Source of the DNA: a virus
Taxonomy: Duplodnaviria > Caudoviricetes
DNA length: 64,000 bases
Reading direction: 5' to 3' (one strand)
Virus record (IMG/VR): IMGVR_UViG_3300027278_000003
The position numbers and the translations under genes are program-made. Shown here piece by piece: positions 11,018-47,684 of this stretch. The stretch's first letter is position 1; every line of letters begins with the position of its first letter. Under the pieces are notes generated by a model. It was not told where the DNA came from. It was given only the letters and a program-made list of their open reading frames with translations, and made no database searches.

Positions 11018-11034
11018 ACAAAGGGTAAAAGACT

Positions 11035-15749: not shown

Positions 15750-15825
15750 GCCCTTATAGCTCAGCTGGTAGAGCAACTGATTTGTAATCAGTAGGTCCGC
15801 GGTTCGAGTCCGTGTGAGGGCACCA
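15750..15825 (+). tRNA. tRNA-Thr(TGT)
   Basis: Full cloverleaf, loop TTTGTAA, encoded CCA. Confidence 0.97.
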
Positions 15826-15829
15826 TAAT

Positions 15830-15914
15830 GCGGGTGTGGCGGAATTGGTAGACGCACCAGATTTAGGTTCTGGCGCCGCAAGGCGTGGGGGTTCGAGTCC
15901 CTCCACCCGCACCA
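15830..15914 (+). tRNA. tRNA-Leu(TAG)
   Basis: Class II cloverleaf, loop TTTAGGT, CCA. Confidence 0.97.
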
Positions 15915-16021
15915 AGATAAAATTATATTAGAAACTATTATATTATTAGTAAAAACGGACAATAACGATAGGATATTATAAATAAAGTTGCAAGATCTTT
16001 TATATAGTAAAACTTGCATAT

Positions 16022-16097
16022 GGGGCCTTAGCTCAGCTGGGAGAGCGCCTGATTTGCATTCAGGAGGTCAGGAGTTCGATCCTCCTAGGCTCCACCA
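16022..16097 (+). tRNA. tRNA-Ala(TGC)
   Basis: Cloverleaf, G3-U70, loop TTTGCAT, CCA. Confidence 0.97.
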
Positions 16098-16099
16098 AT

Positions 16100-16129
16100 A
16101 AAAAAGGCGGTCCCAGTGACCGCCTTTTT
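16100..16129. terminator. bidirectional intrinsic terminator
   Basis: AAAAAAGGCGGTC-CCAGT-GACCGCCTTTTT. Confidence 0.9.
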
Positions 16130-16158
16130 ATTATAAAATTTTTGAAAATGAGGAAACA

Positions 16159-17562
16159 ATGCGTCCATTTTATATGCTACCGCCTTGTGACAGACCAGCG
16201 TTAAGTGACAAGCGCAGAACAGTTACATATAATGAATTTATAAAAGAAGTCACAGAAAAGAAAGCATGGCTCAATAGTCTAGGTTATGGGCCAGGGCATC
16301 GTATTTGCGTTCAGGGACCAAATGCAATTGAAACATATGTAATGCTTGTTGCAGCAAGTATGGACATGTGCGGCACAACGCTTCCGATGAATGCAAGTGA
16401 GCTAGAAGAAAAATCTCGTATTGAAGCAAACAATGCAAACTGCATCATTCGTTTTACTAAGGATGCAGAATACATTGGTATTGAACATCGTCATTTCGAA
16501 AAAACAATGGCGCAACCAAAAGAATATATGTGCTACTACAGTAGTGGTACAACCAATCCATACGGCTTTACCAAGTGCTTTAGTGCGCCCTATGAACTAG
16601 ATGAAGATAACTGGGGTTGTAGTAATGACTTAACAAATGCATATCGCATTCAAGGCAACCCAGATTATGCTAACCCTGAAACAAACCGCTCAATTAGTGT
16701 AATGGTGCCATACATTGCATGGGGTCAGGATGTTGTTTACAACACACTTTATATGGGCGGCTGGACATATCTTATGTATGAACCAGAAGAATACGACTAT
16801 GCATGTGAACTACTAAAGCCCACTTGGATTACCGCATTCCCTCTTGCCCTGCAAAAGATTATGAATACAAACAAAGGGCATCACAAGCTAAACACAGTTG
16901 AGTTTGGTGGCATTGTTGTTAATGAAAAACAAATGAATGATATACAAGAGTTCTTTGGACCTAAGCAATACATCAATGTATACGGTGAAGGCGCTATCGG
17001 TACAACATTCTGTAACTTTGCTAAATCAGGCGAAGACATTACACACATTGGCAAACAAATGACATGGCATCGTTTGAGTGGTGGTGAAGTGCGTATTGGT
17101 GATCGTGGAACATTAGAAATTCGCGGACTTAATACACCAAATCAAACTTGGTGGGACACTGGTGACATTGTTGAGGTTGACGAAAACGGAAACTATCGTA
17201 TCACTGGCCGCGCAGAAGAAATCTTTATCAACCGCGGCGGCGGTAAGTTATACCCACACGAAGTAGCAGCATACATTGGACAAATGCCAGGAATCAAGGA
17301 TGTATATGTATATCCTATTGCAGACGAAGAAGTGGGGCAAATTCCAGGATGCGTTTATAGTGGCGATGTATCCCCAAAAGAATTTATGGAATACACGAAA
17401 ACAAAAGTAGCCAAATGGCAGGTACCTGTTAAATTTACAAGAGTTAAAAATACAATGAGTATGCTAGTACATGATCAGTGTAGTCCAAAGATAAGTATTT
17501 TAAAGTTAGAGAAAATGCTAGCAGACAATCCTGAATGGACGGTAGAAGAATATGGCAAATGA
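16159..17562 (+). CDS. AMP-binding (ANL family) acyl-CoA ligase-like enzyme
   Basis: YYSSGTT P-loop, YGEG, DTGDI, RITGR..INRGG.K.YPHEV. Confidence 0.85.
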   Translation: MRPFYMLPPCDRPALSDKRRTVTYNEFIKEVTEKKAWLNSLGYGPGHRICVQGPNAIETYVMLVAASMDMCGTTLPMNASELEEKSRIEANNANCIIRFTKDAEYIGIEHRHFEKTMAQPKEYMCYYSSGTTNPYGFTKCFSAPYELDEDNWGCSNDLTNAYRIQGNPDYANPETNRSISVMVPYIAWGQDVVYNTLYMGGWTYLMYEPEEYDYACELLKPTWITAFPLALQKIMNTNKGHHKLNTVEFGGIVVNEKQMNDIQEFFGPKQYINVYGEGAIGTTFCNFAKSGEDITHIGKQMTWHRLSGGEVRIGDRGTLEIRGLNTPNQTWWDTGDIVEVDENGNYRITGRAEEIFINRGGGKLYPHEVAAYIGQMPGIKDVYVYPIADEEVGQIPGCVYSGDVSPKEFMEYTKTKVAKWQVPVKFTRVKNTMSMLVHDQCSPKISILKLEKMLADNPEWTVEEYGK

Positions 17563-18157
17563 AATCTTATCAGCAAGCTACGTTGATGGTTTTGATGATG
17601 TAGAGAAACAAGTCAGTATTTTTGAAAATTGGACAAACTATGTTGAAGAAATACTTGATACAGCGGGTTGGTTAGGCCCAAGCAAAACAACCGCATATGC
17701 TATTAGTAATTTTGATAGTGATATTGAAATTGCAGATCTAGCATGTGGACCTGGCACAGGTGGTGCCATCTTAAAGATGGCACTTTATAAAAATGTTGAC
17801 GGGTATGACATCACTCCTAGATTCTTAAAAGCAGCAGAACCTTTTTACCGTAATGTTGGATATTGTAATATCGTTGCAACCCCCTTGCCAAAAAAATACC
17901 CTCTCATACTTGCTAGTGGAGTTTTTACTCGTGGACATTTGAGTGCCGCCCCTGCTAAAAATCTTGCAGATAGTTTAACTGACGATGGGTTTCTTGTAAT
18001 GACTACGCCTGCTATGTCTGATTATGATTACATGGCAGAAAGCGGTTGGAATGACCAACCGTATCTTCGTGAAGTAGAAGTGCATGGTCCATGGAAAAGT
18101 CTGTATACTGAGGGACATCAACACCATCATTATCTACGAGTATTTAAGAAAGCATGA
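17552..18157 (+). CDS. class I SAM-dependent methyltransferase
   Basis: IADLACGPGTGG motif I, GYDIT, LASGVF. Confidence 0.85.
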   Translation: MANEILSASYVDGFDDVEKQVSIFENWTNYVEEILDTAGWLGPSKTTAYAISNFDSDIEIADLACGPGTGGAILKMALYKNVDGYDITPRFLKAAEPFYRNVGYCNIVATPLPKKYPLILASGVFTRGHLSAAPAKNLADSLTDDGFLVMTTPAMSDYDYMAESGWNDQPYLREVEVHGPWKSLYTEGHQHHHYLRVFKKA

Positions 18158-20013
18158 AAAAAGTATATCTTTCACACTTTAGTATTATAATTGATCCTGG
18201 TAAAAACCAGTTTTTACCTTACAGTAGTGCTACACTGTGGAGTTATGTACAAACACAGCAGGATATCATTGATCGTTACGAATTAGGCGGTATGTTTTTT
18301 GAAAAAGATTCATACAGTAATATTATTGATCAACTTGATAATCCTGCGGTGTTTGGTATGAGCTGTTACGTCTGGAATGCAAACTTCAATGATGGGCTTG
18401 CACAACAAATCAAAAAACGCTATCCAGAATGCTTAATAGTATATGGCGGACCGCATCTTCCGCAATCAGCAGATGACGACTGGTGGGGTGAACACTCTTA
18501 TGTTGACGCAGTTGTATATTATGAAGGCGAAAAGGTTTTTGCAGATATACTCAGATGTGAAGACCGCGGTAGCATCGCAGAGATACCAAACGTGTGTGTT
18601 AATTTTGGAAGTCATTGGACATACAGTAACGATCCAACTGCAAACAGAATTCGTGATTTGCAAGTTATTCCATCGCCCTATGCAAGTGAATTATTTAAAA
18701 ATGTACAAGCAAATAATGCAGCATTATTTGAAACACATCGCGGCTGTCCCTATGCGTGTACTTTTTGTGATTGGGGCAGTCTAACATATACAAAAGTAAC
18801 AAAGTATGACATTGATCGTATACGTGCAGATATTGAATGGGCAGCTAAAAATAAAATTGGTTTCCTGTACAATGTTGATGCTAACTTTGGCATTTTTAAA
18901 GAACGTGATCATATAATTGTTGATATGCTTATTGAAGCAAAAGAAAAGTATGGCTATCCAAAGATGTATTTTGTTAATTGGGCAAAGAATGCCAATGAAG
19001 ACATTCTACAAATGGCTAAAAAGCTATACGATGCAAAATTAATTAAAACATTTATTATGAGTTTACAAACATTAACACAGGATGCACTGGAGTTAATTAA
19101 ACGTGATAATATGGATATCAACAAGTATACCTTCTTTGCTAATCGTTGTAAAGAACTTGAACTTCCATTTGACTGTGAATTAATTTTAGGCAACCCAGGT
19201 GAAACAGTAGACGGCTGGAAACAAACGTATTTGACCCTAGCAGACTTCGAGCAGTTAAGTACACAAATATTCCCACTAGCTATTCTTCCTGGCGCAGAAC
19301 TTGCGACAAAAGAAAACCGTGAGCTTTTTGAAATTAAAACAGTTCTAAAACCGTTTCCAGGTGTAGGGCAAGCAGAAGTTCCAGAATATATGGAACAAAT
19401 CGAAAGTACCAAGTGGCTGGCAGCTGATGATATCCGCTATTTGTTTGAATGGACTTGGTGCGCAAGAACAGGACATGAATTTAATTTCATGCGTGACTTT
19501 GCTAATTATGTGGATCGTCATGGTATAATTGATAAGACAGCATTTTATGATCGCTGGCATCACTACGTTAAAAATAGTAATGGTGCTATCAACAGAGTGT
19601 TTAAGTCTGTTGTTGAGCAGCGGGTGGCAAATGGTGTATTTGGTATCGCAATGCAAAGTATGGGATTCAGAGAACATTTGACAATTGAAAAGCGCAGTGA
19701 AACACTGGCAGAGATAGCAGACTTTACTAGCCAATTTGATATGGACCAACGTATACGTGCAGAACTTTTAAAATATTGTGACGCTAGGCTATTTGATATT
19801 ACAGTTGATTACCCAGTGGTTAGGTCATTTGACTACAACTTTATTGACGACATAGATGAACATGTAGAGATAGAATTTACATCAACGCTGTTTGGTGCAT
19901 ATGCAAGTATGGGACAACATTTGCTTGAAGGTAGCGAAGCAGTAACAGAAAACTATAAGTTTAGGAGCGGGCTTGTATGCACATTGACAAAGCCACGAAA
20001 AATTACTTCTTAG
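18154..20013 (+). CDS. cobalamin-binding radical SAM enzyme
   Basis: B12 domain (GMSCYVWN, IVYGGPH) plus ETHRGCPYACTFCDW CxxxCxxC. Confidence 0.9.
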   Translation: MKKVYLSHFSIIIDPGKNQFLPYSSATLWSYVQTQQDIIDRYELGGMFFEKDSYSNIIDQLDNPAVFGMSCYVWNANFNDGLAQQIKKRYPECLIVYGGPHLPQSADDDWWGEHSYVDAVVYYEGEKVFADILRCEDRGSIAEIPNVCVNFGSHWTYSNDPTANRIRDLQVIPSPYASELFKNVQANNAALFETHRGCPYACTFCDWGSLTYTKVTKYDIDRIRADIEWAAKNKIGFLYNVDANFGIFKERDHIIVDMLIEAKEKYGYPKMYFVNWAKNANEDILQMAKKLYDAKLIKTFIMSLQTLTQDALELIKRDNMDINKYTFFANRCKELELPFDCELILGNPGETVDGWKQTYLTLADFEQLSTQIFPLAILPGAELATKENRELFEIKTVLKPFPGVGQAEVPEYMEQIESTKWLAADDIRYLFEWTWCARTGHEFNFMRDFANYVDRHGIIDKTAFYDRWHHYVKNSNGAINRVFKSVVEQRVANGVFGIAMQSMGFREHLTIEKRSETLAEIADFTSQFDMDQRIRAELLKYCDARLFDITVDYPVVRSFDYNFIDDIDEHVEIEFTSTLFGAYASMGQHLLEGSEAVTENYKFRSGLVCTLTKPRKITS

Positions 20014-20531
20014 AAATAGACATAGATTACAATCCAAACGACTTCTTGGAATTATTTGATCGTTACGAACTTGAAATGTATATTGATCGTAACGGGGAGC
20101 CGTTTGGTCTTGAAGTATGCTACGATAAAAAATTGCTAACTGAACCAGTAGTGCAGCATTACGCAAATGTGTTTAAGGACTTTGGTCTGCGATTGGAGTA
20201 TGATCGCCCTGTCGATAATAATAAACATTCTGGGGTAGCAGGATATCAACTAGCCCGCAGCCAATTAAAAGATCGTGGGCTAAACATACATCGCGATGGT
20301 TTTAGGAAGTTTAACATAACTTTTCCTGTTACTTATCCACAAAGTATCAATTGGTATTCTGATAAAACTGGCAGTGGCAAATATACATATGAATATCATA
20401 AAAAAATAGTATGCTGCAATGTTGGTGGCGCATGGCATAATGTTGATCCAAGCACAGAGCCTAGATTACAATTTCAATTTGATTGTTATGTTGATTGGGA
20501 AACTATACCTGGCTTATTAGAAAAAATTTAA
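19977..20531 (+). CDS. cupin/2OG-Fe(II) oxygenase-like protein
   Basis: LNIHRD and distal WHNV..PRLQFQF pattern. Confidence 0.55.
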   Translation: MHIDKATKNYFLEIDIDYNPNDFLELFDRYELEMYIDRNGEPFGLEVCYDKKLLTEPVVQHYANVFKDFGLRLEYDRPVDNNKHSGVAGYQLARSQLKDRGLNIHRDGFRKFNITFPVTYPQSINWYSDKTGSGKYTYEYHKKIVCCNVGGAWHNVDPSTEPRLQFQFDCYVDWETIPGLLEKI

Positions 20532-21240
20532 CATCACGCCAATTTGGGCTATCGATAACTCTATATGTATTAAAGTCATAATATCCCATTCTCTCTGCCA
20601 TTTTTAAATTAGTTATATCGTAAATATGCGAGTAATATTCATTATACATGTCGTCATTATACAACTCGCCGTGTGTCTTCACAGCCCATATATCACGCCT
20701 TGTAAAATTTAGTTTACGATTGTTTATATCATTCAAAAACTGTAGATATTCATTATCCTCGCTAACCAATCCTTCAAACCTTACCCATCCAGGAAATAGA
20801 GCAGTTGTTTGCATGTAACGATCAGCAGTGGTAGTTACATCATTAATAATATTAATGATTTTGCTTTTAGGAAAGAATTTACGTAACTCACTGGGTGTGC
20901 TGTGCGTACAGTAGATAAATTTTTTGTCAGTGTCTGGGGCAACTTCAAGAAAGTTTTTGTAAAACAAACTATAGTAGGCGGCGGGAGAAGGAAAGAAATC
21001 GCTAACATAATCCCACGTTGGCGGCAATTTGCCTAGTGGAACAATACGATCAAAATGTGCTTTGGCTGCATAACGTTGACGAATACTTGTATGTGTAAAG
21101 TGTATATTCCACGGATGTATTCCGTTATCAGGATGGCTATACCAATAATGTTCAGGCATGGCAGCAAGTGTGCGGGCAATACGATGTCCGCCACCGGCTT
21201 GCTCAAAGCTAACAAATATTATACGGTCAAATATATCCAT
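20503..21240 (-). CDS. sulfotransferase-like P-loop protein
   Basis: IIFVSFEQAGGGHRIARTL N-terminus; ATG at 21240. Confidence 0.45.
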   Translation of the reverse strand: MDIFDRIIFVSFEQAGGGHRIARTLAAMPEHYWYSHPDNGIHPWNIHFTHTSIRQRYAAKAHFDRIVPLGKLPPTWDYVSDFFPSPAAYYSLFYKNFLEVAPDTDKKFIYCTHSTPSELRKFFPKSKIINIINDVTTTADRYMQTTALFPGWVRFEGLVSEDNEYLQFLNDINNRKLNFTRRDIWAVKTHGELYNDDMYNEYYSHIYDITNLKMAERMGYYDFNTYRVIDSPNWRDVKFFLISQV

Positions 21241-21742
21241 GTTCTTTAAGTAAATCTCTATAATAAAAATAACTATGATCAAAGAAGTTTATTTGAAAAA
21301 AATGCCTAAACTCCCCGCGACTATCTACTACTTCATGCACTGCTTTATTGTTTTGTAAGTATGCAGCACCACGATGGTAAAGTTTTAAATGATGTTTCTC
21401 TTCTTCGTCCCAGAACGTAGTATAAGTTTCAGTGTAGTTTAGTGGTATAGTGATACTCGCTTGCCTATACATGTCGTCGTGTCTTGGTACATTTCCTGTA
21501 TTTTTTAGCAACATGCAACTACCTGCAAGCTCAAGTGCAACTGGATATAATTGTTTAACACATTCAGGAATATCTTGTATGTCACGTGCTAGATAATTTC
21601 CGTCCCAAACTTCTTCACCGGTGTGTTCGTCAGTAAACCAAAATTGTTCGTAATTATATGACGACTGCCATTGAAACAATTCATTAATCTGATCAGCTGA
21701 TGGTTGAATATGCAATTTACAAAAATAATCACAAGCGTCCAT
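21227..21742 (-). CDS. cupin/2OG-Fe(II) oxygenase-like protein
   Basis: VPRHDD..SITIPL..HEV..RHFFQINF. Confidence 0.55.
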   Translation of the reverse strand: MDACDYFCKLHIQPSADQINELFQWQSSYNYEQFWFTDEHTGEEVWDGNYLARDIQDIPECVKQLYPVALELAGSCMLLKNTGNVPRHDDMYRQASITIPLNYTETYTTFWDEEEKHHLKLYHRGAAYLQNNKAVHEVVDSRGEFRHFFQINFFDHSYFYYRDLLKEHGYI

Positions 21743-22430
21743 GATAATATAACTCTCCAGTTTTTGACATGCTTACATGATCACGTGTATTAAACCAGTC
21801 ATCATACACGCAGATATCCCCTTTGATTAACAGCTCGTTGCCACTCAAGTAATGCTGGCAATAGAATCTGTCCCCTAGTATAGATGCGCCGCTGACCCCT
21901 GTGTTCTTATAAAGTTTAACTTGATCAATTGATCTGAACACTGTATTAATTGCACATGGCCCAACCTCAGTCATACCCCAATTAGCCATAAAGGTAGCAC
22001 CTCGGTTAACGAAAGCTTCTATAATATCCCATGTAACAGGATCACTACCACACGTTACCCATATTCCTGTCAAATCGAGATCCGTAAATCCCTTGGTCAT
22101 CATGATTGCTCTAGCGTGGTTGGGAGTAACGTGTGTATGTGTATACTTGTGTATTTCCTTTACAAATCTATATGCGTTAAAATCTTCTATTACAACATCG
22201 GCACCAATACTATATGCTGGCAATGTTTGTGCAAGTAATCCGCCTGCATGTTGTGTTTTGCAAACAGTATATATTCTACTATTGCTAGTAATTTCCTGAC
22301 TGTCAATTGCAGTGGCATTAGCTGCACGTAGTTTTTCAGGAGATTGAAATATAACTTTTGGTTCACCAGTAGTACCACTACTGCGTAACTCGCCGCCGTT
22401 CGAAAGCCAATTATTTAGATCTAGGTTCAT
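21729..22430 (-). CDS. short AMP-binding (ANL) domain protein
   Basis: SSGTTGEPK and WGMTEVGP motifs; only 233 aa. Confidence 0.75.
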   Translation of the reverse strand: MNLDLNNWLSNGGELRSSGTTGEPKVIFQSPEKLRAANATAIDSQEITSNSRIYTVCKTQHAGGLLAQTLPAYSIGADVVIEDFNAYRFVKEIHKYTHTHVTPNHARAIMMTKGFTDLDLTGIWVTCGSDPVTWDIIEAFVNRGATFMANWGMTEVGPCAINTVFRSIDQVKLYKNTGVSGASILGDRFYCQHYLSGNELLIKGDICVYDDWFNTRDHVSMSKTGELYYHGRL

Positions 22431-24612: not shown

Positions 24613-25740
24613 ATGGACAAGTTAGAACAATACATTAGGGATAACACTTTCGAGCGCCCTACTCTTGTCCTGGATGTGGGCAAGGTCGAACAAAATTATA
24701 AACAACTAAAAACAGGTCTAGGCGATGCACATATTCATTATGCTGTTAAAGCAAACCCTCAAAAAGAAATATTAGAGACACTGGTTAGACTAGGCTCTCG
24801 CTTTGATGCAGCTAGCATGGGTGAGATCATGTTATGTCTAAATGCTGGTGCTCGCCCAGAGCATATTAGCTTTGGCAACACTATTAAACGTGTACAGGAT
24901 ATTCAGTTTGCATATCAGGCAGGCATTAGACTATACGCGGCAGATGCAGAAGAAGAACTGGAAAAGATCGCAGTACACGCACCTGGCAGTGCAGTATTCA
25001 TTCGTGTGCTTATTCATAATACTGAAGCTGAATGGCCACTGAGCCGTAAGTTTGGTTGCAACAGTAACTATGTACTACCACTGTTTGAATATGCTACAAA
25101 GCTAGGACTACTACCATGTGGCATCAGCTTCCATATTGGCAGTCAGACACGACACCCAGAAATGTGGGAAGAAAACTTAGAAATGATGAGCCGCATCTGG
25201 CATGAATGTGCAGATGCAGGGTTCAACATGGATATGCTTAACTTGGGCGGTGGCTTTCCAGCTTACTATGGTGTTGAAATTACAGAGCCAGAATCATATG
25301 CACGTGAACTACGCCGCATGGTAGCTGAAAAGTTTGGTGAAGTAAAATACATTATGGCTGAACCAGGCCGCGGCATGGTGGGTAACTGTGGTTATCTGGC
25401 TGCGAGCGTACTACTGGTATCACGCAAGACACCAGGCGATAATATTCGCTGGGTATACCTGGACGCAGGACGTTTCAACGGACTAGCTGAGACAGAAGGC
25501 GAAGCAATTAAGTATCAGTTTGTATTTCCAGGCAAAGACAATGATGATACAGATTACTGCAACGTAGCAGGGCCAACCTGTGATAGTGCTGATGTACTTT
25601 ACAATCAAAACAAAGTGCTGATGCCCAATACTCTTGCATGTGGCGACAAGGTCATTATCAAGAACTGCGGCGCATACACTACAACATATTCAACAGTTGC
25701 CTTCAACGGGTTCCCGCCACTGGGAGTAGTTGTGATATGA
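24613..25740 (+). CDS. fold-type III PLP-dependent ornithine/lysine decarboxylase
   Basis: HYAVKANP (PLP Lys), FHIGSQ, NLGGGF, AEPGR, GPTCDSAD. Confidence 0.93.
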   Translation: MDKLEQYIRDNTFERPTLVLDVGKVEQNYKQLKTGLGDAHIHYAVKANPQKEILETLVRLGSRFDAASMGEIMLCLNAGARPEHISFGNTIKRVQDIQFAYQAGIRLYAADAEEELEKIAVHAPGSAVFIRVLIHNTEAEWPLSRKFGCNSNYVLPLFEYATKLGLLPCGISFHIGSQTRHPEMWEENLEMMSRIWHECADAGFNMDMLNLGGGFPAYYGVEITEPESYARELRRMVAEKFGEVKYIMAEPGRGMVGNCGYLAASVLLVSRKTPGDNIRWVYLDAGRFNGLAETEGEAIKYQFVFPGKDNDDTDYCNVAGPTCDSADVLYNQNKVLMPNTLACGDKVIIKNCGAYTTTYSTVAFNGFPPLGVVVI

Positions 25741-25925
25741 TGAAGCCCAAGAACAAGTATTTGCTTTATATAATGGCAAATGATCCTTGGGCAAAAATAT
25801 TCTGGCGAGTTTACTTCTGGTGGGGCATACGACAAGCACACAAGCGTAGACTCGCTAATGAAGCACGAATTGCTGCACTTCCCAAGCTGACGGGTGAAGA
25901 ATGGTGGGAAAGTCAAAAAAAGTGA
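25737..25925 (+). CDS. small hypothetical protein
   Basis: 62 aa, ATGA overlap with decarboxylase stop. Confidence 0.55.
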   Translation: MMKPKNKYLLYIMANDPWAKIFWRVYFWWGIRQAHKRRLANEARIAALPKLTGEEWWESQKK

Positions 25926-25942
25926 AAAAAGTGAAAAAACAC

Positions 25943-25972
25943 TTGACATTTGCGGTTCGTCGTGTATAAATA
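25943..25972 (+). promoter_or_regulatory. promoter upstream of leader peptide
   Basis: TTGACA-N16-TATAAA, also TATAAATA. Confidence 0.7.
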
Positions 25973-26006
25973 AAGTATAAGTTAAAACAAAGGAATAGAA
26001 CTTTCA

Positions 26007-26087
26007 ATGAAACACAGTATGCACATTATTAGCTTTAGTAAAGAGTGGTATCGCTGTGGTATCACTGAGGGTTCGCGTATGGCATAG
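26007..26087 (+). CDS. 26-aa leader peptide MKHSMHIISFSKEWYRCGITEGSRMA
   Basis: AAGGAA RBS; ends TAG 25 nt before a terminator and contains the antiterminator strand. Confidence 0.7.
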   Translation: MKHSMHIISFSKEWYRCGITEGSRMA

Positions 26088-26111
26088 ACAGCCTTACATT
26101 CCAAACTAGGA

Positions 26112-26146
26112 AAGAACCCTCCCTGCGTAAGCAAGGAGGGTTTTTT
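26112..26146 (+). terminator. intrinsic terminator of attenuator
   Basis: AACCCTCCCTGC-GTAA-GCAAGGAGGGTT then T-run; 5' arm GAACCCTC is complementary to GAGGGTTC at 26067-26074. Confidence 0.85.
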
Positions 26147-26176
26147 CATTTTAAGGCAAAAAAGTTAAAAAAACTA

Positions 26177-26206
26177 CTTGACAACCAAGACGTTTTGCTT
26201 TATAAC
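26177..26206 (+). promoter_or_regulatory. second sigma70-type promoter before ncRNA/tRNA array
   Basis: TTGACA-N18-TATAAC. Confidence 0.55.
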
Positions 26207-26342
26207 TAAAAATGTAGACAGTGAGTTGTTTACACGCTTTTTGAAAATTTGGTAACAGAATTAGTTCTTAGTTTCGGCGATGATAGAACGGTAAGTAGAG
26301 TAATACATGCACCAACATGTATTCATTGAACTCTACTTACAC

Positions 26343-26446
26343 GTATGTTAGAGATGGGAGTAGCATGGTTCGACTCCGTGCGTGGTTGGGTTGACCTATG
26401 TAAAAAGCCGGCGGGCGCTCGCTGTTTCAAAGACAGACTAACATAC
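26343..26446 (+). ncRNA. structured RNA with T-arm mimic inside a closing stem
   Basis: GTATGTTAG/CTAACATAC closing stem; GCATGG-TTCGACT-CCGTGC hairpin. Confidence 0.55.
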
Positions 26447-26447
26447 T

Positions 26448-26568
26448 TGTAAGTAGAGACAACGATTCTATTTTCACATACACAGCTAACTAACAGAGGG
26501 CCGTCCGGGGGTCGTTATGCTAAGGTACTGTGTAGCTGTAAGTAGAGACAATGATTCTGTTTTCACAT
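26448..26568 (+). repeat. 32-nt direct repeat, two copies
   Basis: TGTAAGTAGAGACAAYGATTCTRTTTTCACAT at 26448-26479 and 26537-26568; partial GTAAGTAGAG at 26291. Confidence 0.9.
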
Positions 26569-26658
26569 GCTCTTTAGTCCGTAATGGCGCACGGTTAGTT
26601 TCGCCCATTTAGTTGGTTGGACTGGTTCGAATCCAAAAAGAGCAGATGAAAACAGAAT
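26554..26658 (+). ncRNA. tRNA-like module with acceptor stem extended into long duplex, no CCA
   Basis: ATTCTGTTTTCA/TGAAAACAGAAT plus TGCTCT/AGAGCA; D-like CCGT-loop-ACGG; GGTTCGAATCC. Confidence 0.6.
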
Positions 26659-26659
26659 T

Positions 26660-26743
26660 GGTCAGTGGCCCGGATGGTAAGGGGATGGATTGCAAATCCA
26701 TAGCACTGTAAAGTAGCGTGTTCGATTCACATACTGACCTCCA
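26660..26743 (+). tRNA. tRNA-Cys(GCA) with long variable arm
   Basis: GGTCAGT/ACTGACC, ATGGA-TTGCAAA-TCCAT, extra ACT-GTAA-AGT arm, TCCA end. Confidence 0.75.
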
Positions 26744-26749
26744 AATAAC

Positions 26750-26824
26750 GATGCGGTAGCACAACGGTAGTGCGCTGGTCTCATACGCCAATGGTTGCTG
26801 GTTCGAATCCAGCCTGCATCACCA
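26750..26824 (+). tRNA. tRNA-CAT (Met or Ile2)
   Basis: Cloverleaf, loop CTCATAC, ACCA. Confidence 0.85.
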
Positions 26825-26841
26825 AACAAAGGAAGAAAGAA

Positions 26842-34244: not shown

Positions 34245-35002
34245 GTTACGTAGAAACCAAAGATGATGAAGTATTGGGTAAACTTTATAGTTACACACAC
34301 TTTGACATACCATTACAGGGATTGAACGGTAACCCGTTTCATAATTTTACTGATGGACATGACTTTGATTTTGAACGTATGGATGATGAAATATGTGCAG
34401 CACTAGCAGTGAGCGACTTGTCTAAACTTCCAATGGTTGGTAGTGCAATTCCACCAAAGTTTGCAGGAGACTTGCCACTCGAAGAAGATGCATTGTTCAA
34501 TTTTGACGGTGACTTAGAGATAGTCAAAAATATGACACAGCAAGAACGCAGAAAGTACATGATCTTCAAGCGCAAATGTGTCGCACCGTGGTTCTTTGTA
34601 TTGGACTTGAAGCCAAACGTGTTCAAGACAAAACACTTAGACAAATTTCCATGGGAACCAATCATGGAAATGATGCCATATACAAAATCGTGTATAGAGA
34701 AACTCCCATTTAAAGAAATAGGCAGAGTGGTGATTTATGGATCATGGGCAGATTCTAAAGTAGTCTGTCACCGAGATTACCCACCAAGAGATACTATCTC
34801 ACATCATATCAATTTTCATCCAGGTGGAAACAGACCAGTATATGTTTATGATTCTATGAATGACAAAAAGATATACTTACCAGATAATCACAGATTATAT
34901 GCATACAACGTAACAGATTATCATGGCGTAGATCCTGTACCTTATTTCAGCTACACAGTGAGAGTAGACGGCACGTATGATGACAGTGTTGGAATAGAAT
35001 GA
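34241..35002 (+). CDS. cupin/2OG oxygenase-like protein
   Basis: VVCHRD and DYHGV..YTVRVDG. Confidence 0.55.
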   Translation: MSYVETKDDEVLGKLYSYTHFDIPLQGLNGNPFHNFTDGHDFDFERMDDEICAALAVSDLSKLPMVGSAIPPKFAGDLPLEEDALFNFDGDLEIVKNMTQQERRKYMIFKRKCVAPWFFVLDLKPNVFKTKHLDKFPWEPIMEMMPYTKSCIEKLPFKEIGRVVIYGSWADSKVVCHRDYPPRDTISHHINFHPGGNRPVYVYDSMNDKKIYLPDNHRLYAYNVTDYHGVDPVPYFSYTVRVDGTYDDSVGIE

Positions 35003-35616
35003 AAATTATTTTAGGTACGCCGCGTTCAGGTACCAGTTTTGTTGCAAATTGGTATGCAAATGAACTACCCGATCACAAGTACATGTTACCAGAAAAATTA
35101 GGAGAGTATTTTCATCCAGACTTTTTTGCATCAGACGATGTAGATGCAGAAACACTAGAGCGAATTTCTGGACTGCCAATTAAATGCATTTTTAAATTGC
35201 ATACTGGTAAGGAAATGAGCAAGCATATATGGGAATATATTTCAGATAAGCCTGTGATATTGGTGAAGCGTAAAGATATTCTAGGACAGTTTATTAGCAT
35301 TGGTGTAGGTTACACTACGAATAAATGGGTCAACTTCAAAGCAAAGAACACTAATGGATTGCAAGCTGGACAAACATTCTATTATAAAAAAGAATGGTTT
35401 GACGATTTAGCAGAACGAATTATGTCTTTACAAAGTATCGAAAATACGTTATTATTAGAGCGCACCATATGGTTTGAAGATTTAGATCAATTCAAACCGA
35501 ACGGTGAACTGCCTACAAGACAAAACAGTTTGCCAAACGATGTGAAGTTACAGTATATAGAAAACAAAGAAGAATTTCTATCATGGATGAAGATATTTGA
35601 GGACAGCAATGTATAA
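34999..35616 (+). CDS. sulfotransferase-family protein
   Basis: ILGTPRSGTSF PAPS-binding loop; KRKDILGQFIS. Confidence 0.75.
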   Translation: MKIILGTPRSGTSFVANWYANELPDHKYMLPEKLGEYFHPDFFASDDVDAETLERISGLPIKCIFKLHTGKEMSKHIWEYISDKPVILVKRKDILGQFISIGVGYTTNKWVNFKAKNTNGLQAGQTFYYKKEWFDDLAERIMSLQSIENTLLLERTIWFEDLDQFKPNGELPTRQNSLPNDVKLQYIENKEEFLSWMKIFEDSNV

Positions 35617-36214
35617 GACGTTAGTAGAAAATAAAGTTTGGCTGTTTGAAGACTTTCTATCACCAGAAGATTTTAATTATCTAGAAGAAACGTATGTGTC
35701 AAAAGATTTTGACATGATCCATGTGAACAATAAAGACTTCACGCCGTTGATGGCGGACACGGGTATGAGTTATCGTGTCATTACCATGGATATTTACGAA
35801 CCTATATATGCTGCACTTAACGATTTATCCGTCAATGAGTTCGGTAGGTCTATGGAATGCATTAAGACAGGCGGTCTGAATATGCAATATAAACGATTTG
35901 AAGGCAGTGACTTCTATGATTTACATGCGGAAGACAGTGTGAAATATGGTGATCTAGTTTATATTATGTATCTAACTGATGAAACTGATGGAGAGCTTGT
36001 GCTACCAAGTTATGAGGATGCACAGAGAGAATGGACGGCAGGGTTTCAACAGATGACCGAACAATTCAAAGTCGGCTTCTCAGATAAAACAATTAGTATA
36101 ACACCAAAGAAAAACACATGTGCAGTGATGCGTACTGGCATAGCACACATTGTAAGAGAATGTAGCGGTAGAAGGGACAGTATCGCAGGTTGGCCATGGT
36201 TCATTAAAAAATGA
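35609..36214 (+). CDS. prolyl-hydroxylase-like 2OG-Fe(II) oxygenase
   Basis: YDLHAED..YLTD..GELV..AHIV..RRDSIAGW. Confidence 0.75.
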   Translation: MYKTLVENKVWLFEDFLSPEDFNYLEETYVSKDFDMIHVNNKDFTPLMADTGMSYRVITMDIYEPIYAALNDLSVNEFGRSMECIKTGGLNMQYKRFEGSDFYDLHAEDSVKYGDLVYIMYLTDETDGELVLPSYEDAQREWTAGFQQMTEQFKVGFSDKTISITPKKNTCAVMRTGIAHIVRECSGRRDSIAGWPWFIKK

Positions 36215-36771
36215 GACATTTACGGGCATCAAATGACATCTATGACATAGATGAAATAAAAAAGTTATTAAATGACACACAGTTTTATGGTCTTCCGGGT
36301 CAACTGACATACGATGGACCCGTAGAACTGGATATGGTTCCTGAAAGTTTGAAGAAGTTGTTTGATGAAACATATATCACTGCTGGTTTTGTTAAGGTAT
36401 CGACCGACTATAATTTACCACCACACGAAGACAACTTTTTAGCAAGTAAATTGAACCCTTACAGAAATTTACTTGGTGACTTTTACATTGACTGGTTAGA
36501 AAAAACGGGCAACAGAATGTGTAGTTTCATGATACCAGTTGAGGGTGATTTTGTTAATACTCGCACCGATTTGTATTGGAAAGAAACAAAAGAAAAGTTC
36601 GACAGTTTTACACTAGAAGATGGACCTGTACTATTCCAAACACGAGGTGATGTTATGCACGGTGTTGACAACAGAAATAAAAATGAAAGAATTACATTTC
36701 AATTAAGTTTTGGAGATAGCTATGAATACGTCAGAGATAAGATTCTTGCCTCTGGATTTGCCAAAGTTTGA
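36211..36771 (+). CDS. cupin/2OG oxygenase-like protein
   Basis: LPPHED..MHGV..ERITFQ. Confidence 0.6.
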   Translation: MRHLRASNDIYDIDEIKKLLNDTQFYGLPGQLTYDGPVELDMVPESLKKLFDETYITAGFVKVSTDYNLPPHEDNFLASKLNPYRNLLGDFYIDWLEKTGNRMCSFMIPVEGDFVNTRTDLYWKETKEKFDSFTLEDGPVLFQTRGDVMHGVDNRNKNERITFQLSFGDSYEYVRDKILASGFAKV

Positions 36772-37384
36772 ACACAAGCAAAAAGTATTGGATGAATTCA
36801 ATCCAGATACTGAATTCTACTTTTGGGGCGAAGAATATATTACGGTACGTGACCGATCCATCCCATTCCACGATCCTATGCCTATAAAAGAAGGGGTGCA
36901 TACCGAACTAGTAGAATATGTCAAAGAGCATTTTCCATTTACGGGTATAGTACTGTTTAAACTTGTAAGGGCCAACAGGGATGTTAAGCCTCACGTGGAT
37001 GACAACTATATTGACTATGTTGGTCCTAGTAAAGACTTCAATACCATAAGCAGAGAATTTAGAGATCACCAACTTAATACGGAACCTTGTGGATATCGTA
37101 TGACAATCGCAGGTGATCGTAAGAGTTTGTATCTTACTGATGGTGAGCCTAGAGTAATCGATGGTAAGCTAGTTTACGGTGAAATTACCGAGCATATTGA
37201 AACGGAAGTACCAGAAGACACAGATTGCTTTGCATTAAAAACATATGGAAGTATGCATGGTGTCAAAAAGACAGACAAAGATGACAACCGATTACTTTTG
37301 TTTGTAGTTGGTTGGTTAGACGAACAGCGGCATAAAGAACTAGTTGAACGCAGTTACGTAAAATATAAGGATTATGTTAGATGA
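36722..37384 (+). CDS. cupin/2OG oxygenase-like protein
   Basis: VKPHVD..MHGV..RLLLFVVG. Confidence 0.55.
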   Translation: MNTSEIRFLPLDLPKFEHKQKVLDEFNPDTEFYFWGEEYITVRDRSIPFHDPMPIKEGVHTELVEYVKEHFPFTGIVLFKLVRANRDVKPHVDDNYIDYVGPSKDFNTISREFRDHQLNTEPCGYRMTIAGDRKSLYLTDGEPRVIDGKLVYGEITEHIETEVPEDTDCFALKTYGSMHGVKKTDKDDNRLLLFVVGWLDEQRHKELVERSYVKYKDYVR

Positions 37385-37650
37385 ACATATGGAGTTTTGA
37401 AACATATGTCGCAGACAGTCCAATACACGGTAAAGGTAGATACACATATGAACCTATACGTCTGGGAGAAACTGTACTACGTATCGACGGAAACATTCAC
37501 AAGAATGAAAACCAAAGTTATGTAAATCATAGTATCGATAACAATTTAGACTACGTAGGTAGTAATACCTGGGTAGCAAGCAGGGATATCGATCCAAATG
37601 AAGAACTAACAATGAATTATTTGCAATGGATAAAGGAGTTGCCATTTTGA
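37381..37650 (+). CDS. minimal SET-domain protein
   Basis: SPIHGKG, YVNHS, RDIDPNEELTMNY. Confidence 0.85.
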   Translation: MNIWSFETYVADSPIHGKGRYTYEPIRLGETVLRIDGNIHKNENQSYVNHSIDNNLDYVGSNTWVASRDIDPNEELTMNYLQWIKELPF

Positions 37651-38153
37651 AAATAGCATTAACGGGTGATAGTTCGGGATTTGGTCCGTACGTAAGAGAC
37701 ACACTTGAAAATCTAGGACACGAAGTGATCGGATTGAGTAGATCAAAAGGATATGATCTGTCAACTACTATTGGTAGAGAACTTGCCATCTATGCAACAG
37801 AAGATTGCGATGTTTTTATTAATAATAGTTCTGCTGGTGGGTGGCAACCACACATGCTTGAAGATTGGTTGTTGGCATATTACAATCAAAACAAAACTAT
37901 TATCAACATAAGCAGCAATCTTGCACTGGTGAACGAACCCGCGGCAGAACATGTAGCGGAATGGCTTTGTAAAAATAAATTGAATGATGTGCATCGCAAA
38001 TTCATAAATGGTAGTGATTACCATGTAAAATGCCAGTCTAAAATACTCAGTTGGGGTTATTGGAATAATCATCCAATTGCAAAAGATCACCCAGAGGTGA
38101 TAACGAAAATGACAATTAAGGAAGCGATACAAGATATCGTTGATTTACTATGA
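37647..38153 (+). CDS. short SDR-like oxidoreductase
   Basis: IALTGDSSGFG, DVFINNS, IINISS. Confidence 0.7.
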   Translation: MKIALTGDSSGFGPYVRDTLENLGHEVIGLSRSKGYDLSTTIGRELAIYATEDCDVFINNSSAGGWQPHMLEDWLLAYYNQNKTIINISSNLALVNEPAAEHVAEWLCKNKLNDVHRKFINGSDYHVKCQSKILSWGYWNNHPIAKDHPEVITKMTIKEAIQDIVDLL

Positions 38154-38647
38154 AATACGCTATAACTGGTCACACATACGGTATTGGTGAAGGGCTTTAT
38201 AAACGTCTTTCACCAAATGCAATTGGTTTCAGCAAAAGCACCGGATATGACATAACCAAAAAAGAAATTAGAAAGAAAATAATTGAAGAAGTACACGATT
38301 GTGATGTATTCATCAACAATGCGCCTGCTGGATTTGGGCAGAGTGAACTGTGTTTAGAACTTTGGCAAGCGTGGAAACATACAAACAAAACAATTATAAA
38401 CGTTGGTAGTCGAATTGCTGAAGGTGACATAGTATATCAATATCCAGGCGTGATGATTGAATATGGTATGCACAAAAAGACACTAAAAACTCTCACCGAA
38501 GATTTGCAAAAGATAGACGCACCAATCAATGTTGTGTATCGTTGGTTTGCATATGTTGGAACTCCTAAAATACTAAGCAAGTATCCTGACTTCACTACGG
38601 ACGACTACATCACAATTGACGAGGCGGTGGATATAATACTATCTTGA
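38150..38647 (+). CDS. short SDR-like oxidoreductase
   Basis: AITGHTYGIG, DVFINNA, YGMHK. Confidence 0.75.
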   Translation: MKYAITGHTYGIGEGLYKRLSPNAIGFSKSTGYDITKKEIRKKIIEEVHDCDVFINNAPAGFGQSELCLELWQAWKHTNKTIINVGSRIAEGDIVYQYPGVMIEYGMHKKTLKTLTEDLQKIDAPINVVYRWFAYVGTPKILSKYPDFTTDDYITIDEAVDIILS

Positions 38648-47213: not shown

Positions 47214-47276
47214 TACTTGTAAATTGTATTATAATAGTGTATTATGAAATATAACCTAAAACAATAAGAGGACATA

Positions 47277-47684
47277 ATGACAAAACAAGTTGATCTAAAC
47301 GCATACCGTGATTTCGTTGCAGAAGTAACGAGTGATGCAAGTAATGAGCTAGAAGTAATGATTGCACGACTTCGTGAACTAAACGAAACTGTGAATATCT
47401 CACTCCTAATGACAGGTGCGATTGGTATGAGTGCAGAAGGTGGCGAGTTTGCAGAAGTTGTCAAGAAATGTGTATTCCAAGGTAAACCAATGAACGACGA
47501 AACAGTCTTTCATATGAAGCGTGAACTTGGTGACATTGCTTGGTATTTTGTGAATGCGTGTCGTGCGATTGGTGAAGACCCAAATGAAGTGATTGCAGAG
47601 AATGTGCGTAAACTCGAAGCACGTTATCCCGGTGGATCATTTGATGCATTCTATTCAGAAAATCGCAAAGACGGCGATCTATAA
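47277..47684 (+). CDS. mazG: MazG-like nucleotide pyrophosphohydrolase
   Basis: EGGEFAEVVKK..ELGDIAWY..NVRKLEARYP. Confidence 0.85.
   Translation: MTKQVDLNAYRDFVAEVTSDASNELEVMIARLRELNETVNISLLMTGAIGMSAEGGEFAEVVKKCVFQGKPMNDETVFHMKRELGDIAWYFVNACRAIGEDPNEVIAENVRKLEARYPGGSFDAFYSENRKDGDL

What the first reader, a model, noticed from the sequence alone, without database searches (positions are those of the whole stretch)
25943..26146. Leader-peptide attenuator in front of a phage tRNA array: a possible sensor of translation failure
Seen: promoter (25943-25972), RBS, a 26-codon ORF (26007-26087) and a strong terminator (26112-26146). GAGGGTTC at 26067-26074, 10 nt before the leader stop, is exactly complementary to GAACCCTC in the terminator 5' arm, so the two helices are mutually exclusive. 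A 9-bp hairpin (26044-26066) lies just upstream, where a pause hairpin would sit. Established: this is the geometry of ribosome-mediated attenuators (trp, his, ilv, leu). Unusual: those leaders are rich in one amino acid, whereas this one samples 14 different amino acids in 26 codons (K,E,W,Y,R,C,G,I,T in a row), and it controls tRNAs and ncRNAs rather than biosynthetic genes. Inference: a ribosome reaching the stop masks the antiterminator and transcription stops; a ribosome stalled by loss of any tRNA (starvation, host anticodon nucleases) allows read-through into the rescue tRNAs. Caveat: a second promoter at 26177 could drive the array independently.
Basis: partly seen in the sequence, partly recalled or inferred. 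Interest (0 to 1): 0.9.

Follow-up and report, generated by a model that had tools for sequence, protein, structure and literature searches.

The report
Codon-matched leader attenuator before phage tRNAs
A tiny translated gene wired to a switchable transcription stop sits in front of this phage's tRNA genes. In its many relatives the tiny gene is spelled in the amino acids whose tRNAs follow, so the phage probably makes these tRNAs only when ribosomes run short of them, a control I found described nowhere for tRNA genes.

Summary
The element is not a chance arrangement.

- **Family.** A core pattern search found 36 distinct homologues in uncultured phage contigs and none in 26 matches from bacterial genomes. 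The pattern did not ask for any of the following, yet tRNA-linked members have them: a 19-38-codon ATG frame reading GAG GGT as Glu-Gly, a stop 12-18 nt later, a hairpin at the stop, and a same-strand tRNA array behind the terminator. The array starts only 8-26 nt behind it in six lineages.
- **Decisive result.** Leader residues mirror the tRNAs encoded downstream. Own-array match is 0.71 against 0.50 when arrays are permuted (0 of 20,000). 116 of 122 array amino acids appear in their leader, against 80 expected.
- **Contrasts.** Two leaders in one 330-kb phage each match only their own array. A leader inside an array matches only the distal half.
- **Geometry.** Codons next to the antiterminator are not matched, which fits a ribosome-footprint mechanism.
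- **This window.** The match is only marginal (11/19, P = 0.05), and a second promoter at 26178 can bypass the switch.
- **Prior knowledge.** I found no publication. This scan has already noted the same logic on other DNA, including phiCbK-like Caulobacter phages, which I partly re-checked.

Verdict: a new variant of classical attenuation, of high interest.

The parts
25943..25972 (+). Promoter P1: -35 TTGACA (25943-25948), 16-nt spacer, -10 TATAAATA (25965-25972). An A-rich tract lies upstream (25918-25941).
   Evidence: The same -10 octamer sits at four other intergenic promoter positions in the window.
25990..25994 (+). Shine-Dalgarno AAGGA, 12 nt before the ATG.
   Evidence: A similar long SD-ATG spacing is seen in many relatives.
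25997..26005 (+). Region 1 (AGAACTTTC). In naked RNA it pairs with region 2 and encloses the whole leader.
   Evidence: MFE folds (25978-26076: -26.5 kcal/mol, z = -4.1). In one search, region 2 pairs upstream in the window.
26007..26087 (+). Leader ORF of 26 codons (MKHSMHIISFSKEWYRCGITEGSRMA, stop TAG).
   Evidence: The in-frame ORF is conserved in 30 of 34 tRNA-linked pattern matches.
26044..26066 (+). Hairpin directly 5' of region 2, a candidate RNA polymerase pause hairpin.
   Evidence: -10 kcal/mol, z = -1.9; weak on its own. By eye, hairpins occupy the same place in relatives with other sequences.
26067..26074 (+). Region 2, the antiterminator 5' strand GAGGGTTC, read as codons Glu-Gly-Ser.
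   Evidence: It pairs with 26114-26121 in the truncated-transcript fold (-21.6 kcal/mol, z = -4.1).
26077..26097 (+). Stop-codon hairpin (GTATGGC / GCCTTAC) with the TAG in its loop. It forms the apex of the antiterminator.
   Evidence: The variant L058 carries compensating changes that make it a perfect 7-bp stem. A hairpin at or after the stop with unrelated sequences appears throughout the family.
26114..26122 (+). Region 3 (GAACCCTCC), shared by the antiterminator and the terminator.
26110..26147 (+). Intrinsic terminator: 13+3-bp stem, GTAA loop, region 4 GGAGGGTT (26135-26142) and T-tract (26141-26146).
   Evidence: -26 kcal/mol, z = -6.9.
26178..26206 (+). Promoter P2 (TTGACA, 17 nt, TATAAC), 33 nt behind the terminator. 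It can drive the array independently.
26660..29531 (+). Regulated tRNA array: Cys, Met, Lys, Ile, Pro, Gln, a CUA-anticodon tRNA, Met, Met, Arg, Phe, His. Structured RNAs and two small ORFs are interspersed.

Best explanation
The element is a ribosome-mediated (leader-peptide) transcription attenuator that gates transcription from P1 into the phage's tRNA array.

Shown by sequence and comparison:
- A promoter, a translatable 26-codon leader and a canonical intrinsic terminator are present.
- A G-rich segment inside the last codons of the leader (region 2) can pair with the terminator's 5' arm (region 3) instead of region 4.

Inferred mechanism:
- A ribosome that runs to the stop codon covers region 2 and the stop hairpin. 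Regions 3 and 4 then form the terminator and transcription ends at about 26147.
- A ribosome that stalls earlier, on a codon whose charged tRNA is scarce, leaves region 2 free. The 2:3 antiterminator (-21.6 kcal/mol) forms first, and RNA polymerase reads on into the array.
- With no ribosome at all, region 1 (25997-26005) sequesters region 2, and termination is the default.

Across the family the sensor codons are those read by the tRNAs encoded downstream. The circuit is therefore a negative feedback: tRNAs are made on demand when those codons are decoded slowly, for example after amino-acid starvation, host tRNA decay or cleavage by anticodon nucleases. Production shuts off once supply is restored.

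In this window P2 adds an unregulated, or differently timed, route into the same array.
For: 1. **Anatomy and alternative folds in the window.**
2. **Family.** There are 36 distinct elements in IMG/VR and metagenomes. The search pattern fixed only regions 2, 3 and 4.
   - ORF architecture against a downstream tRNA array gives 30/0 versus 4/17.
   - None of 26 matches in bacterial genomes has either feature.
3. **Arrays dependent on read-through.** The array starts 8-26 nt after the T-tract in six lineages, leaving no room for a promoter.
4. **Codon matching.**
   - Leader residues with a cognate downstream tRNA: 368/595 against 232 expected. At codon level: 320 against 179.
   - 14 family representatives: 0.71 own array against 0.50 permuted, 0 of 20,000 permutations.
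   - 116 of 122 array amino acids are represented in their leader, against 79.8 +/- 4.3 expected.
   - Two leaders on one 330-kb contig: 22/23 and 16/24 against their own array, 5/23 and 6/24 against the other.
   - A leader inside an array: 10/14 against the distal half, 1/14 against the proximal half.
5. **Footprint logic.** The last four codons before region 2 are matched 41%, earlier codons 67% (P = 8e-7).
6. **Folding.** With the upstream RNA masked, the 2:3 helix forms in 36 of 36 elements. Naked full-length RNA forms the terminator in 33 of 36.
7. **Unbiased sample.** Loci found through a tRNA-Cys 24-mer carry variant terminators (CCCCTC/GAGGGG; ACCCTCT/AGAGGGT) with matching variant partners at the leader stop.
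8. **Independent lineage.** The same layout occurs in the unrelated cultured phage phiCbK.
Against: - There are no experimental data.
- RNA contigs from estuary metatranscriptomes cover 25990-26166 but cannot show transcript ends or strand.
- In the window itself the codon match is marginal. Only 11 of 19 leader residues have a tRNA downstream (P = 0.049). Of nine array amino acids, seven are represented (P = 0.07). Ser, Glu, Trp, Tyr, Gly and Thr codons have no tRNA in this array.
- P2, directly behind the terminator, could make the switch dispensable here and in 14 of 30 relatives.
- The main collection was found with a pattern that demands the 2:3 complementarity, so that feature is conserved by construction there.
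- Covariation just outside the fixed core is weak: contiguous extension is 1.9 bp within elements against 1.6 bp across families.
- Region 1:2 pairing of at least 5 bp is predicted in only 11 of 36 elements.
- SD-ATG spacing of 12 nt is longer than optimal.
- The polarity (stall gives read-through) is inferred from geometry only.
Confidence: 0.75

Rival explanations
1. Same switch, opposite polarity. Translation of the leader melts the 1:2 helix and frees region 2 to form the antiterminator after the ribosome leaves. Efficient decoding would then give read-through, while stalling or absent ribosomes give termination. This would be a feed-forward check that translation works, not a shortage sensor.
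For: - Naked RNA defaults to 1:2 plus the terminator in the window.
- Region 1 lies in the translation initiation region, so ribosome loading must disturb it.
Against: - The leader stop lies 12-18 nt after the start of region 2 in every member. A terminating ribosome therefore sits exactly on region 2.
- Codons within four codons of region 2 are not array-matched, while earlier ones are. That is expected only if stalls must occur upstream of region 2 to have an effect.
- Region 1:2 pairing is not general (11 of 36).
- Positive feedback on tRNA supply has no obvious use.
Confidence: 0.1
2. A self-contained small gene. P1, the 26-codon ORF and the terminator form an independent unit that makes a micropeptide or a structured small RNA. 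The array is driven by P2, and the terminator merely insulates it.
For: - A strong P2 follows directly behind the terminator in the window and in 14 of 30 relatives.
- The RNA is highly structured (z = -6.25).
- Some peptide motifs recur within subfamilies.
Against: - Peptide sequence is not conserved between subfamilies, apart from the Glu-Gly encoded by the RNA motif.
- Peptide composition tracks the downstream tRNA set, including two different leaders within one genome.
- Six lineages have no space for a P2, and one lineage has the leader inside an array with no promoter of its own.
- The unit was never found away from a tRNA array.
- There is no Rfam family match.
Confidence: 0.07
3. Chance. 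An ordinary terminator of the upstream decarboxylase operon happens to be preceded by a spurious short ORF and a fortuitous 8-nt complement.
For: - The bare pattern also occurs in 17 metagenome and 26 bacterial loci that are ordinary gene ends.
- The promoter and terminator scanners find no overall excess of sites in the region.
Against: - Those control loci lack both the ORF architecture and the tRNAs. All 30 ORF-bearing loci with enough flank have tRNAs.
- P1 lies between the upstream genes and the leader.
- The codon-matching statistics argue against chance.
Confidence: 0.02

Closest known systems
Multivalent leader-peptide attenuators of enterobacterial amino-acid operons (ilvGMEDA leader: Ile/Leu/Val; thr leader: Thr/Ile). 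From my own knowledge of the textbook systems.
   Same: A short translated leader, an intrinsic terminator and a mutually exclusive antiterminator whose formation depends on where the ribosome sits. Several different amino acids are sensed by one leader.
   Different: - The regulated genes are tRNAs, not biosynthetic enzymes.
- Up to 14 amino acids are sampled, usually once to three times each and not in runs.
- The codon set equals the repertoire of the array behind the terminator.
- The antiterminator strand lies inside the last codons of the leader, not after its stop.
trp operon attenuator (trpL) of E. coli. From my own knowledge.
   Same: The window has a four-region logic: 1:2 forms in naked RNA, with 2:3 against 3:4 as the alternatives. 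A hairpin sits where a pause hairpin would be, and the leader stop is positioned so that a terminating ribosome blocks region 2.
   Different: - Region 1 lies in the SD-ATG spacer and not within the regulatory codons.
- There are no tandem regulatory codons.
- Region 1:2 pairing is not conserved across the family.
T-box riboswitches of Gram-positive bacteria. From my own knowledge.
   Same: They sense shortage of a specific charged tRNA and answer by antitermination at an intrinsic terminator.
   Different: - A T-box binds uncharged tRNA directly, without translation, and controls synthetase and amino-acid genes.
- Here there is a translated ORF and no T-box motif. Rfam finds only tRNAs in the window.
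Codon-matched leader cassettes before tRNA arrays, noted earlier by this scan on other DNA (e1-3450868, e1-4045671 and others). These are unpublished AI notes.
   Same: The same logic. I re-derived it independently here, on the same 330-kb contig (L011, L014), and saw it in phiCbK.
   Different: The window's member belongs to the GAGGGTT / ACCCTCC lineage of uncultured aquatic phages. It has a weaker codon match and a bypass promoter. The phiCbK cassettes use unrelated GC-rich terminators.

Membership tests
Ribosome-mediated (leader-peptide) transcription attenuators | A short leader ORF with a ribosome-binding site upstream of the regulated genes, and evidence that it is a real reading frame. 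| tested here: met
   - ORF 26007-26087 with AAGGA.
- The in-frame ATG ORF with a stop 12-18 nt after GAG is kept in 30 of 34 tRNA-linked matches and in 0 of the control matches.
- The other two frames and the antisense frame are rarely open.
- Translation itself was not shown.
Ribosome-mediated (leader-peptide) transcription attenuators | An intrinsic terminator between the leader and the regulated genes. | tested here: met
   Stem plus T-tract at 26110-26147, -26 kcal/mol, z = -6.9. It is present in all 36 relatives and, with different sequences, in the tRNA-Cys-anchored sample.
Ribosome-mediated (leader-peptide) transcription attenuators | A mutually exclusive antiterminator placed so that a ribosome at the leader stop blocks it. 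| tested here: met
   - 26067-26074 pairs with 26114-26121.
- The helix forms in 36 of 36 elements when the upstream RNA is masked. This is partly by construction.
- Independent variants keep an alternative partner at the stop codon.
Ribosome-mediated (leader-peptide) transcription attenuators | Regulatory codons in the leader that are cognate to what the operon supplies. | tested here: met
   Family level: all highly significant. Window alone: 11/19 and 7/9, marginal.
Ribosome-mediated (leader-peptide) transcription attenuators | A 1:2 anti-antiterminator or pause structure that gives termination without translation. | tested here: inconclusive
   Predicted in the window. Predicted with at least 5 bp in only 11 of 36 relatives.
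Ribosome-mediated (leader-peptide) transcription attenuators | The regulated genes are amino-acid biosynthesis genes (the classical members). | tested here: not met
   The downstream genes are tRNAs. I therefore file it as a new variant, not as a member of the classical set.
Ribosome-mediated (leader-peptide) transcription attenuators | Read-through responds to translation of the leader and to the supply of charged tRNA. | not testable with these tools
   Only assembled RNA contigs were available, and they do not show transcript ends.
T-box riboswitch | A specifier loop, the conserved T-box sequence and the stem I architecture. | tested here: not met
   The Rfam scan of the window at gathering thresholds found only tRNAs.

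The most novel reading that the evidence does not exclude
Phages of several unrelated lineages run their tRNA arrays under a previously undescribed class of attenuator. A leader peptide written in the codons of the array behind it measures how fast those codons are decoded and opens a terminator only when they are slow. This would give the phage a per-array, demand-driven replacement system for tRNAs lost to starvation, host shut-off or anticodon-nuclease defences. It would also make the leader sequence a readable record of which tRNAs each array is meant to back up.
Probability: 0.7. Interest if true: 0.9.

Novelty: new variant of a known kind. Interest (0 to 1): 0.85.

Why it matters
- **Regulation.** How phages regulate their tRNA arrays, and why they carry particular sets, is an open question. 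It bears on codon usage, host tRNA decay and tRNA-targeting defence systems.
- **What the circuit would show.** A codon-matched attenuator would mean tRNA supply is sensed directly by the translating ribosome and corrected array by array.
- **Extension of a classical mechanism.** It carries attenuation from amino-acid genes to the decoding machinery itself.
- **Annotation.** Leader composition would predict which tRNAs belong to one regulatory unit.
- **Engineering.** It would supply compact natural parts that report the decoding speed of chosen codons.
- **Testability.** The same layout occurs in cultured phiCbK-like phages, so the idea can be tested directly.

Tried and rejected
- **Cultured relatives.** megablast and blastn of 25600-26700 against 50,697 phage records gave no match. 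A blastn of the tRNA-Cys/Met pair found only generic tRNA similarity. No cultured close relative was identified.
- **Whole genome.** None is held for the window.
- **Exact terminator.** A scan of IMG/VR for the exact 30-mer gave nothing.
- **Rfam.** Only tRNAs were found.
- **Metatranscriptomes.** Contigs from four estuary or marine RNA runs cover parts of the leader and array. They are assemblies, so they say nothing about 3' ends, strand or level. DNA carry-over cannot be excluded.
- **Covariation outside the fixed 7-mers.**
  - Contiguous helix extension is barely above the cross-family control (1.9 against 1.6 bp).
  - The only clean signal: a G before AACCCTC always goes with a C after GAGGGTT (9 of 9).
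  - The MAFFT alignment A1 was too poorly registered around region 3 for pair counting, so I used anchored scripts instead.
- **Other tRNA cluster.** The cluster at 15750-16097 has a promoter and a terminator but no leader of this kind.
- **Small ORFs.** Pfam gave nothing for the 44-aa basic ORF at 26842-26973. PHROGs gave nothing for the 95-aa and 175-aa ORFs next to and inside the array.
- **Bacterial genomes.** The pattern gave 26 matches, none with a leader or tRNAs. I use these only as negative controls.
- **Amber-suppressor idea.** The note that the leader's TAG stop is tied to the array's CUA-anticodon tRNA is not supported as a family feature. Relatives use TAA, TAG and TGA, and the closest variant (L058) uses TAA.

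Full report
**1. The observation**

- Promoter P1: TTGACA at 25943-25948, 16 nt, TATAAA(TA) at 25965-25972, behind an A-rich tract.
- AAGGA at 25990-25994.
- An ATG ORF at 26007-26087 of 26 codons, with 14 different amino acids and a TAG stop.
- GAGGGTTC at 26067-26074, ending 10 nt before the stop. It is the exact complement of GAACCCTC at 26114-26121.
- A canonical terminator at 26110-26147, with a bulged 16-pair stem, a GTAA loop and six T.
- A second consensus promoter, P2: TTGACA 26178, 17 nt, TATAAC.

The simple terminator scanner missed the terminator because of its one-base bulge.

Folding gives these values:

| Segment | Energy (kcal/mol) | z-score |
|---|---|---|
| Terminator alone | -26 | -6.9 |
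| Antiterminator form, 26065-26122 | -21.6 | -4.1 |
| Hairpin 26044-26066 | -10 | -1.9 |
| Whole leader RNA, 25978-26150 | -61.8 | -6.25 |

- The antiterminator form is a three-way junction. Its base is the 8-bp helix between regions 2 and 3, and one of its arms carries the stop codon in its loop.
- The 26044-26066 hairpin is unremarkable on its own.
- In the naked RNA, region 2 pairs not with region 3 but with AGAACTTTC at 25997-26005, in the SD-ATG spacer. This leaves the terminator intact. The window therefore has a four-region layout like trpL.

**2. Context**

- The window is phage DNA. It encodes a clamp loader and both ribonucleotide reductase subunits, alongside many auxiliary enzymes.
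- No genome is held for it and no cultured relative was found.
- Twelve tRNA genes follow the element on the same strand between 26660 and 29531.

**3. Relatives**

The ornithine decarboxylase gene just upstream (24613-25740) found seven IMG/VR loci at 62-65% identity.
- Where tRNAs follow that gene, a recognisable copy of the element sits between them.
- Where the decarboxylase is elsewhere in the genome, the element stays with the tRNA array. L003 and L004 lie on the same contigs as L012 and L011/L014.

A pattern fixing only regions 2, 3 and 4 (GAGGGTT, 36-48 nt, ACCCTCC, 4-18 nt, GGAGGGTTTT) gave these matches:

| Collection | Loci |
|---|---|
| IMG/VR | 26 |
| Metagenomes | 74 |
| Bacterial and archaeal genomes | 26 |

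After removing duplicates there are 59 distinct viral or metagenomic matches. They split cleanly into two groups.
- 36 have an ATG ORF of 19-38 codons that reads GAG GGT as Glu-Gly and stops 12-18 nt after the GAG.
- All 30 of those with enough flanking sequence have a same-strand tRNA within 1.5 kb.
- 17 of the 21 matches without the ORF have no tRNA. Of the four exceptions, one is cut by a contig end.
- None of the 26 bacterial matches has the ORF or tRNAs.

The pattern did not ask for the ORF, its frame, its stop position or the tRNAs. The association is therefore real evidence.

Two further points:
- The other two forward frames are open in 6 and 3 of the 36 elements. A long antisense ORF like the window's 25982-26149 occurs in 4 of 36.
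- By eye, a small hairpin at or just after the stop codon recurs with unrelated sequences. The window's closest variant, L058, carries compensating changes that turn the window's 7-pair stem with a T.T mismatch into a perfect stem.

**4. The array often depends on read-through**

- In six lineages the first tRNA starts 8-26 nt after the T-tract, leaving no room for a promoter.
- In the L109/L113/L115/L116 lineage the leader follows a tRNA-Val with no promoter of its own. It sits in the middle of an array, 8 nt of spacer before tRNA-Cys.
- Fourteen of 30 elements, the window among them, have a strong P2-like promoter 12-33 nt behind the terminator.

**5. The leader spells the array**

This result changes the reading from plausible to compelling.
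- The 19-codon leader MTYFICKFEEYMTWEGSRD (L024) precedes Ile, Tyr, Phe, Glu, Lys, Lys, Met and Cys tRNAs.
- On one 330-kb contig, the L014 leader precedes Cys, Met, Glu, Phe, Lys, Ile, His, Arg and Leu. The L011 leader precedes Asn, Trp, Ser, Ala, Val, Asp, Gly, Thr, Leu, Gln and Pro.
  - L011 leader: 22/23 against its own array, 5/23 against the other (Fisher 4e-7).
  - L014 leader: 16/24 against its own array, 6/24 against the other (P = 0.008).
- The leader inside an array (L113) matches the distal half 10/14 and the proximal half 1/14.
- Over 29 elements, 368 of 595 sensor residues have a cognate tRNA downstream, against 232 expected from proteome composition. At codon level with wobble rules it is 320 against 179.
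- Across 14 family representatives the own-array match is 0.71, against 0.50 +/- 0.04 when arrays are permuted (0 of 20,000).
- In 13 representatives, 116 of 122 array amino acids occur in the leader, against 79.8 +/- 4.3 for random peptides. The random maximum was 96.
- Matching depends on position. The last four codons before region 2 are matched 41%, earlier codons 67% (P = 8e-7; 54% against 74% in the representatives, P = 0.007). This is what ribosome-footprint logic predicts, because a stall next to region 2 would mask it and could not signal shortage.

**6. The alternative pairing**

- With the upstream RNA masked, as behind a stalled ribosome, the 2:3 helix is in the minimum-energy fold of all 36 elements (-17 to -27 kcal/mol). 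Full-length naked RNA forms the terminator in 33 of 36.
- Because the pattern demanded the complementarity, I also sampled arrays through a conserved tRNA-Cys 24-mer. New lineages appeared with different terminators.
  - L110: ACCCTCT / AGAGGGT, with AAG GGT TTG in the leader.
  - L113: CCCCTC / GAGGGG, with the stop codon's own UAGGG as partner.
  - L108: the standard terminator with a degenerate GGAGG partner.
- Each of these folds into an alternative structure that uses the terminator's 5' arm and a G-rich segment at the leader stop.
- Covariation just outside the fixed core is weak. Region 1:2 pairing is predicted in only about a third of members.

**7. Mechanism**

Shown: the parts, their conservation, and the codon-array correspondence.

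Inferred:
- A ribosome reaching the stop covers region 2 and the stop hairpin, so the terminator forms.
- A ribosome stalled on an earlier codon leaves region 2 free. The antiterminator forms before region 4 is made, and RNA polymerase enters the array.
- Without translation, region 1 holds region 2 and termination is the default.
- The result is negative feedback of the array's own products on its transcription.

The opposite polarity is a live but less likely rival. The stop position and the positional matching profile argue against it.

**8. The window's own member**

It is a weaker example than most.
- Eleven of 19 sensor residues have a downstream tRNA (P = 0.049).
- Seven of nine array amino acids are represented (P = 0.07).
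- Ser (three times), Glu, Trp, Tyr, Gly and Thr have no tRNA in this array. Pro and Gln tRNAs have no codon in the leader.
- The array also holds several tRNA-like elements that ARAGORN and Rfam do not call. Only 64 kb of the genome is available.
- P2 may give a constitutive or differently timed input. P1 carries TATAAATA and P2 does not, but any temporal division is speculation.

**9. Known or new**

- Five full-text searches on leader peptides, attenuation and phage or tRNA operons returned nothing describing this.
- The phiCbK genome paper annotates terminators but mentions neither leaders nor attenuation (PMC3556154).
- This scan has already noted the same logic on other DNA. The notes cover a 330-kb phage, phiCbK-like Caulobacter phages and Bacteroidota phages. 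They are unpublished AI notes, and I reached the reading independently before seeing them.
- I partly checked one of them in phiCbK. Annotated terminators stand directly before three tRNA blocks.
  - The 45-aa gp083, rich in Ser, Leu, Pro and Lys, precedes Pro, Pro, Lys, Lys, Leu x3 and Ser x2.
  - A 32-codon ORF containing the run QFVRQIQVV precedes Phe, Val, Ile, Ile, Val, Gln and Gln.
- The logic therefore occurs in unrelated phage lineages and in a cultured, tractable system.

**10. Verdict**

- It works like a multivalent leader-peptide attenuator. It is not a member of the classical set, because it controls tRNA genes and its codon set mirrors the array.
- I rate it a new variant of a known kind and of high interest. 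Two caveats apply: everything is computational, and this particular copy has a bypass promoter and only a marginal codon match.

Noticed in passing
window 27745-27819: A tRNA with a CUA anticodon (ARAGORN labels it 'Pyl'; Rfam tRNA score 40.8) lies inside the array, so it may be an amber suppressor. The leader here ends in TAG, but relatives use TAA, TAG and TGA, so a link to the attenuator is not a family feature.
   Followed up: partly
window 26290-26650, 27044-27146, 29023-29112; L006 6079-6150: tRNA-like elements with T-arm motifs, enclosed in long closing stems, sit between the real tRNAs. ARAGORN and Rfam do not call them. The one at 27044-27146 has a clear counterpart in L006, so it is conserved.
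   Followed up: no
L005 about 7630-7665; also L019, L022 and L108, directly after their terminators: A conserved stretch of about 35 nt, beginning AAAGTGGAAATGCGGAACGAG and closing with a GTGG/CCAC stem, follows the terminator in several lineages. It may be a processing signal or a small RNA heading the array.
   Followed up: no
window 26213-26260 and L006 5527-5570: The motif TGTAGAC..GTTTACACGCT..TTGAAAATTT is conserved just downstream of P2 in the window and in L006. It probably marks the 5' leader of the P2 transcript.
   Followed up: no
window 15619, 15977, 24579, 25965, 29554: TATAAATA serves as the -10 element at five intergenic positions in front of transcription units. From memory, it resembles the T4 late promoter. 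Relatives carry GATAAATAAA repeats upstream of leaders that lack a -35 box. This may point to phage-specific promoter recognition.
   Followed up: partly
window 39648, 41165, 56916, 59151, 59784: Consensus sigma-70-type promoters share a CGAATC motif in their spacer, giving TTGACA...GCGAATC...TATAA. There are 13 such promoter-like sites in the window against 3.9 expected.
   Followed up: no
window 26842-26976: A 44-aa Lys/Arg-rich ORF lies between tRNA-Met and tRNA-Lys, and its stop overlaps the 5' end of tRNA-Lys. It has no Pfam match.
   Followed up: partly
L113 4214-4330 (also L109, L115, L116): A 15-codon leader plus terminator sits inside an array with no promoter of its own. It splits one transcription unit into an unregulated proximal half and a regulated distal half.
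   Followed up: yes
L119 (phiCbK 47000-53000): Three annotated rho-independent terminators stand directly in front of tRNA blocks. Each is preceded by a short ORF whose composition resembles the block. One ORF ends in EGFRD, like the EGSRD tail of the L024 lineage.
   Followed up: partly
window 16103-16130: A strong terminator closes the separate Thr-Leu-Ala tRNA cluster (15750-16097). That cluster has a promoter but no leader cassette.
   Followed up: yes
window 8714-12162, 16159-22430, 24613-25740, 29591-38647, 43756-46608: The phage carries an unusual load of metabolic genes: both RNR subunits, ornithine decarboxylase, full-length PutA, a fatty-acid desaturase, two B12-radical-SAM enzymes and an AMP-binding enzyme.
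   Followed up: partly
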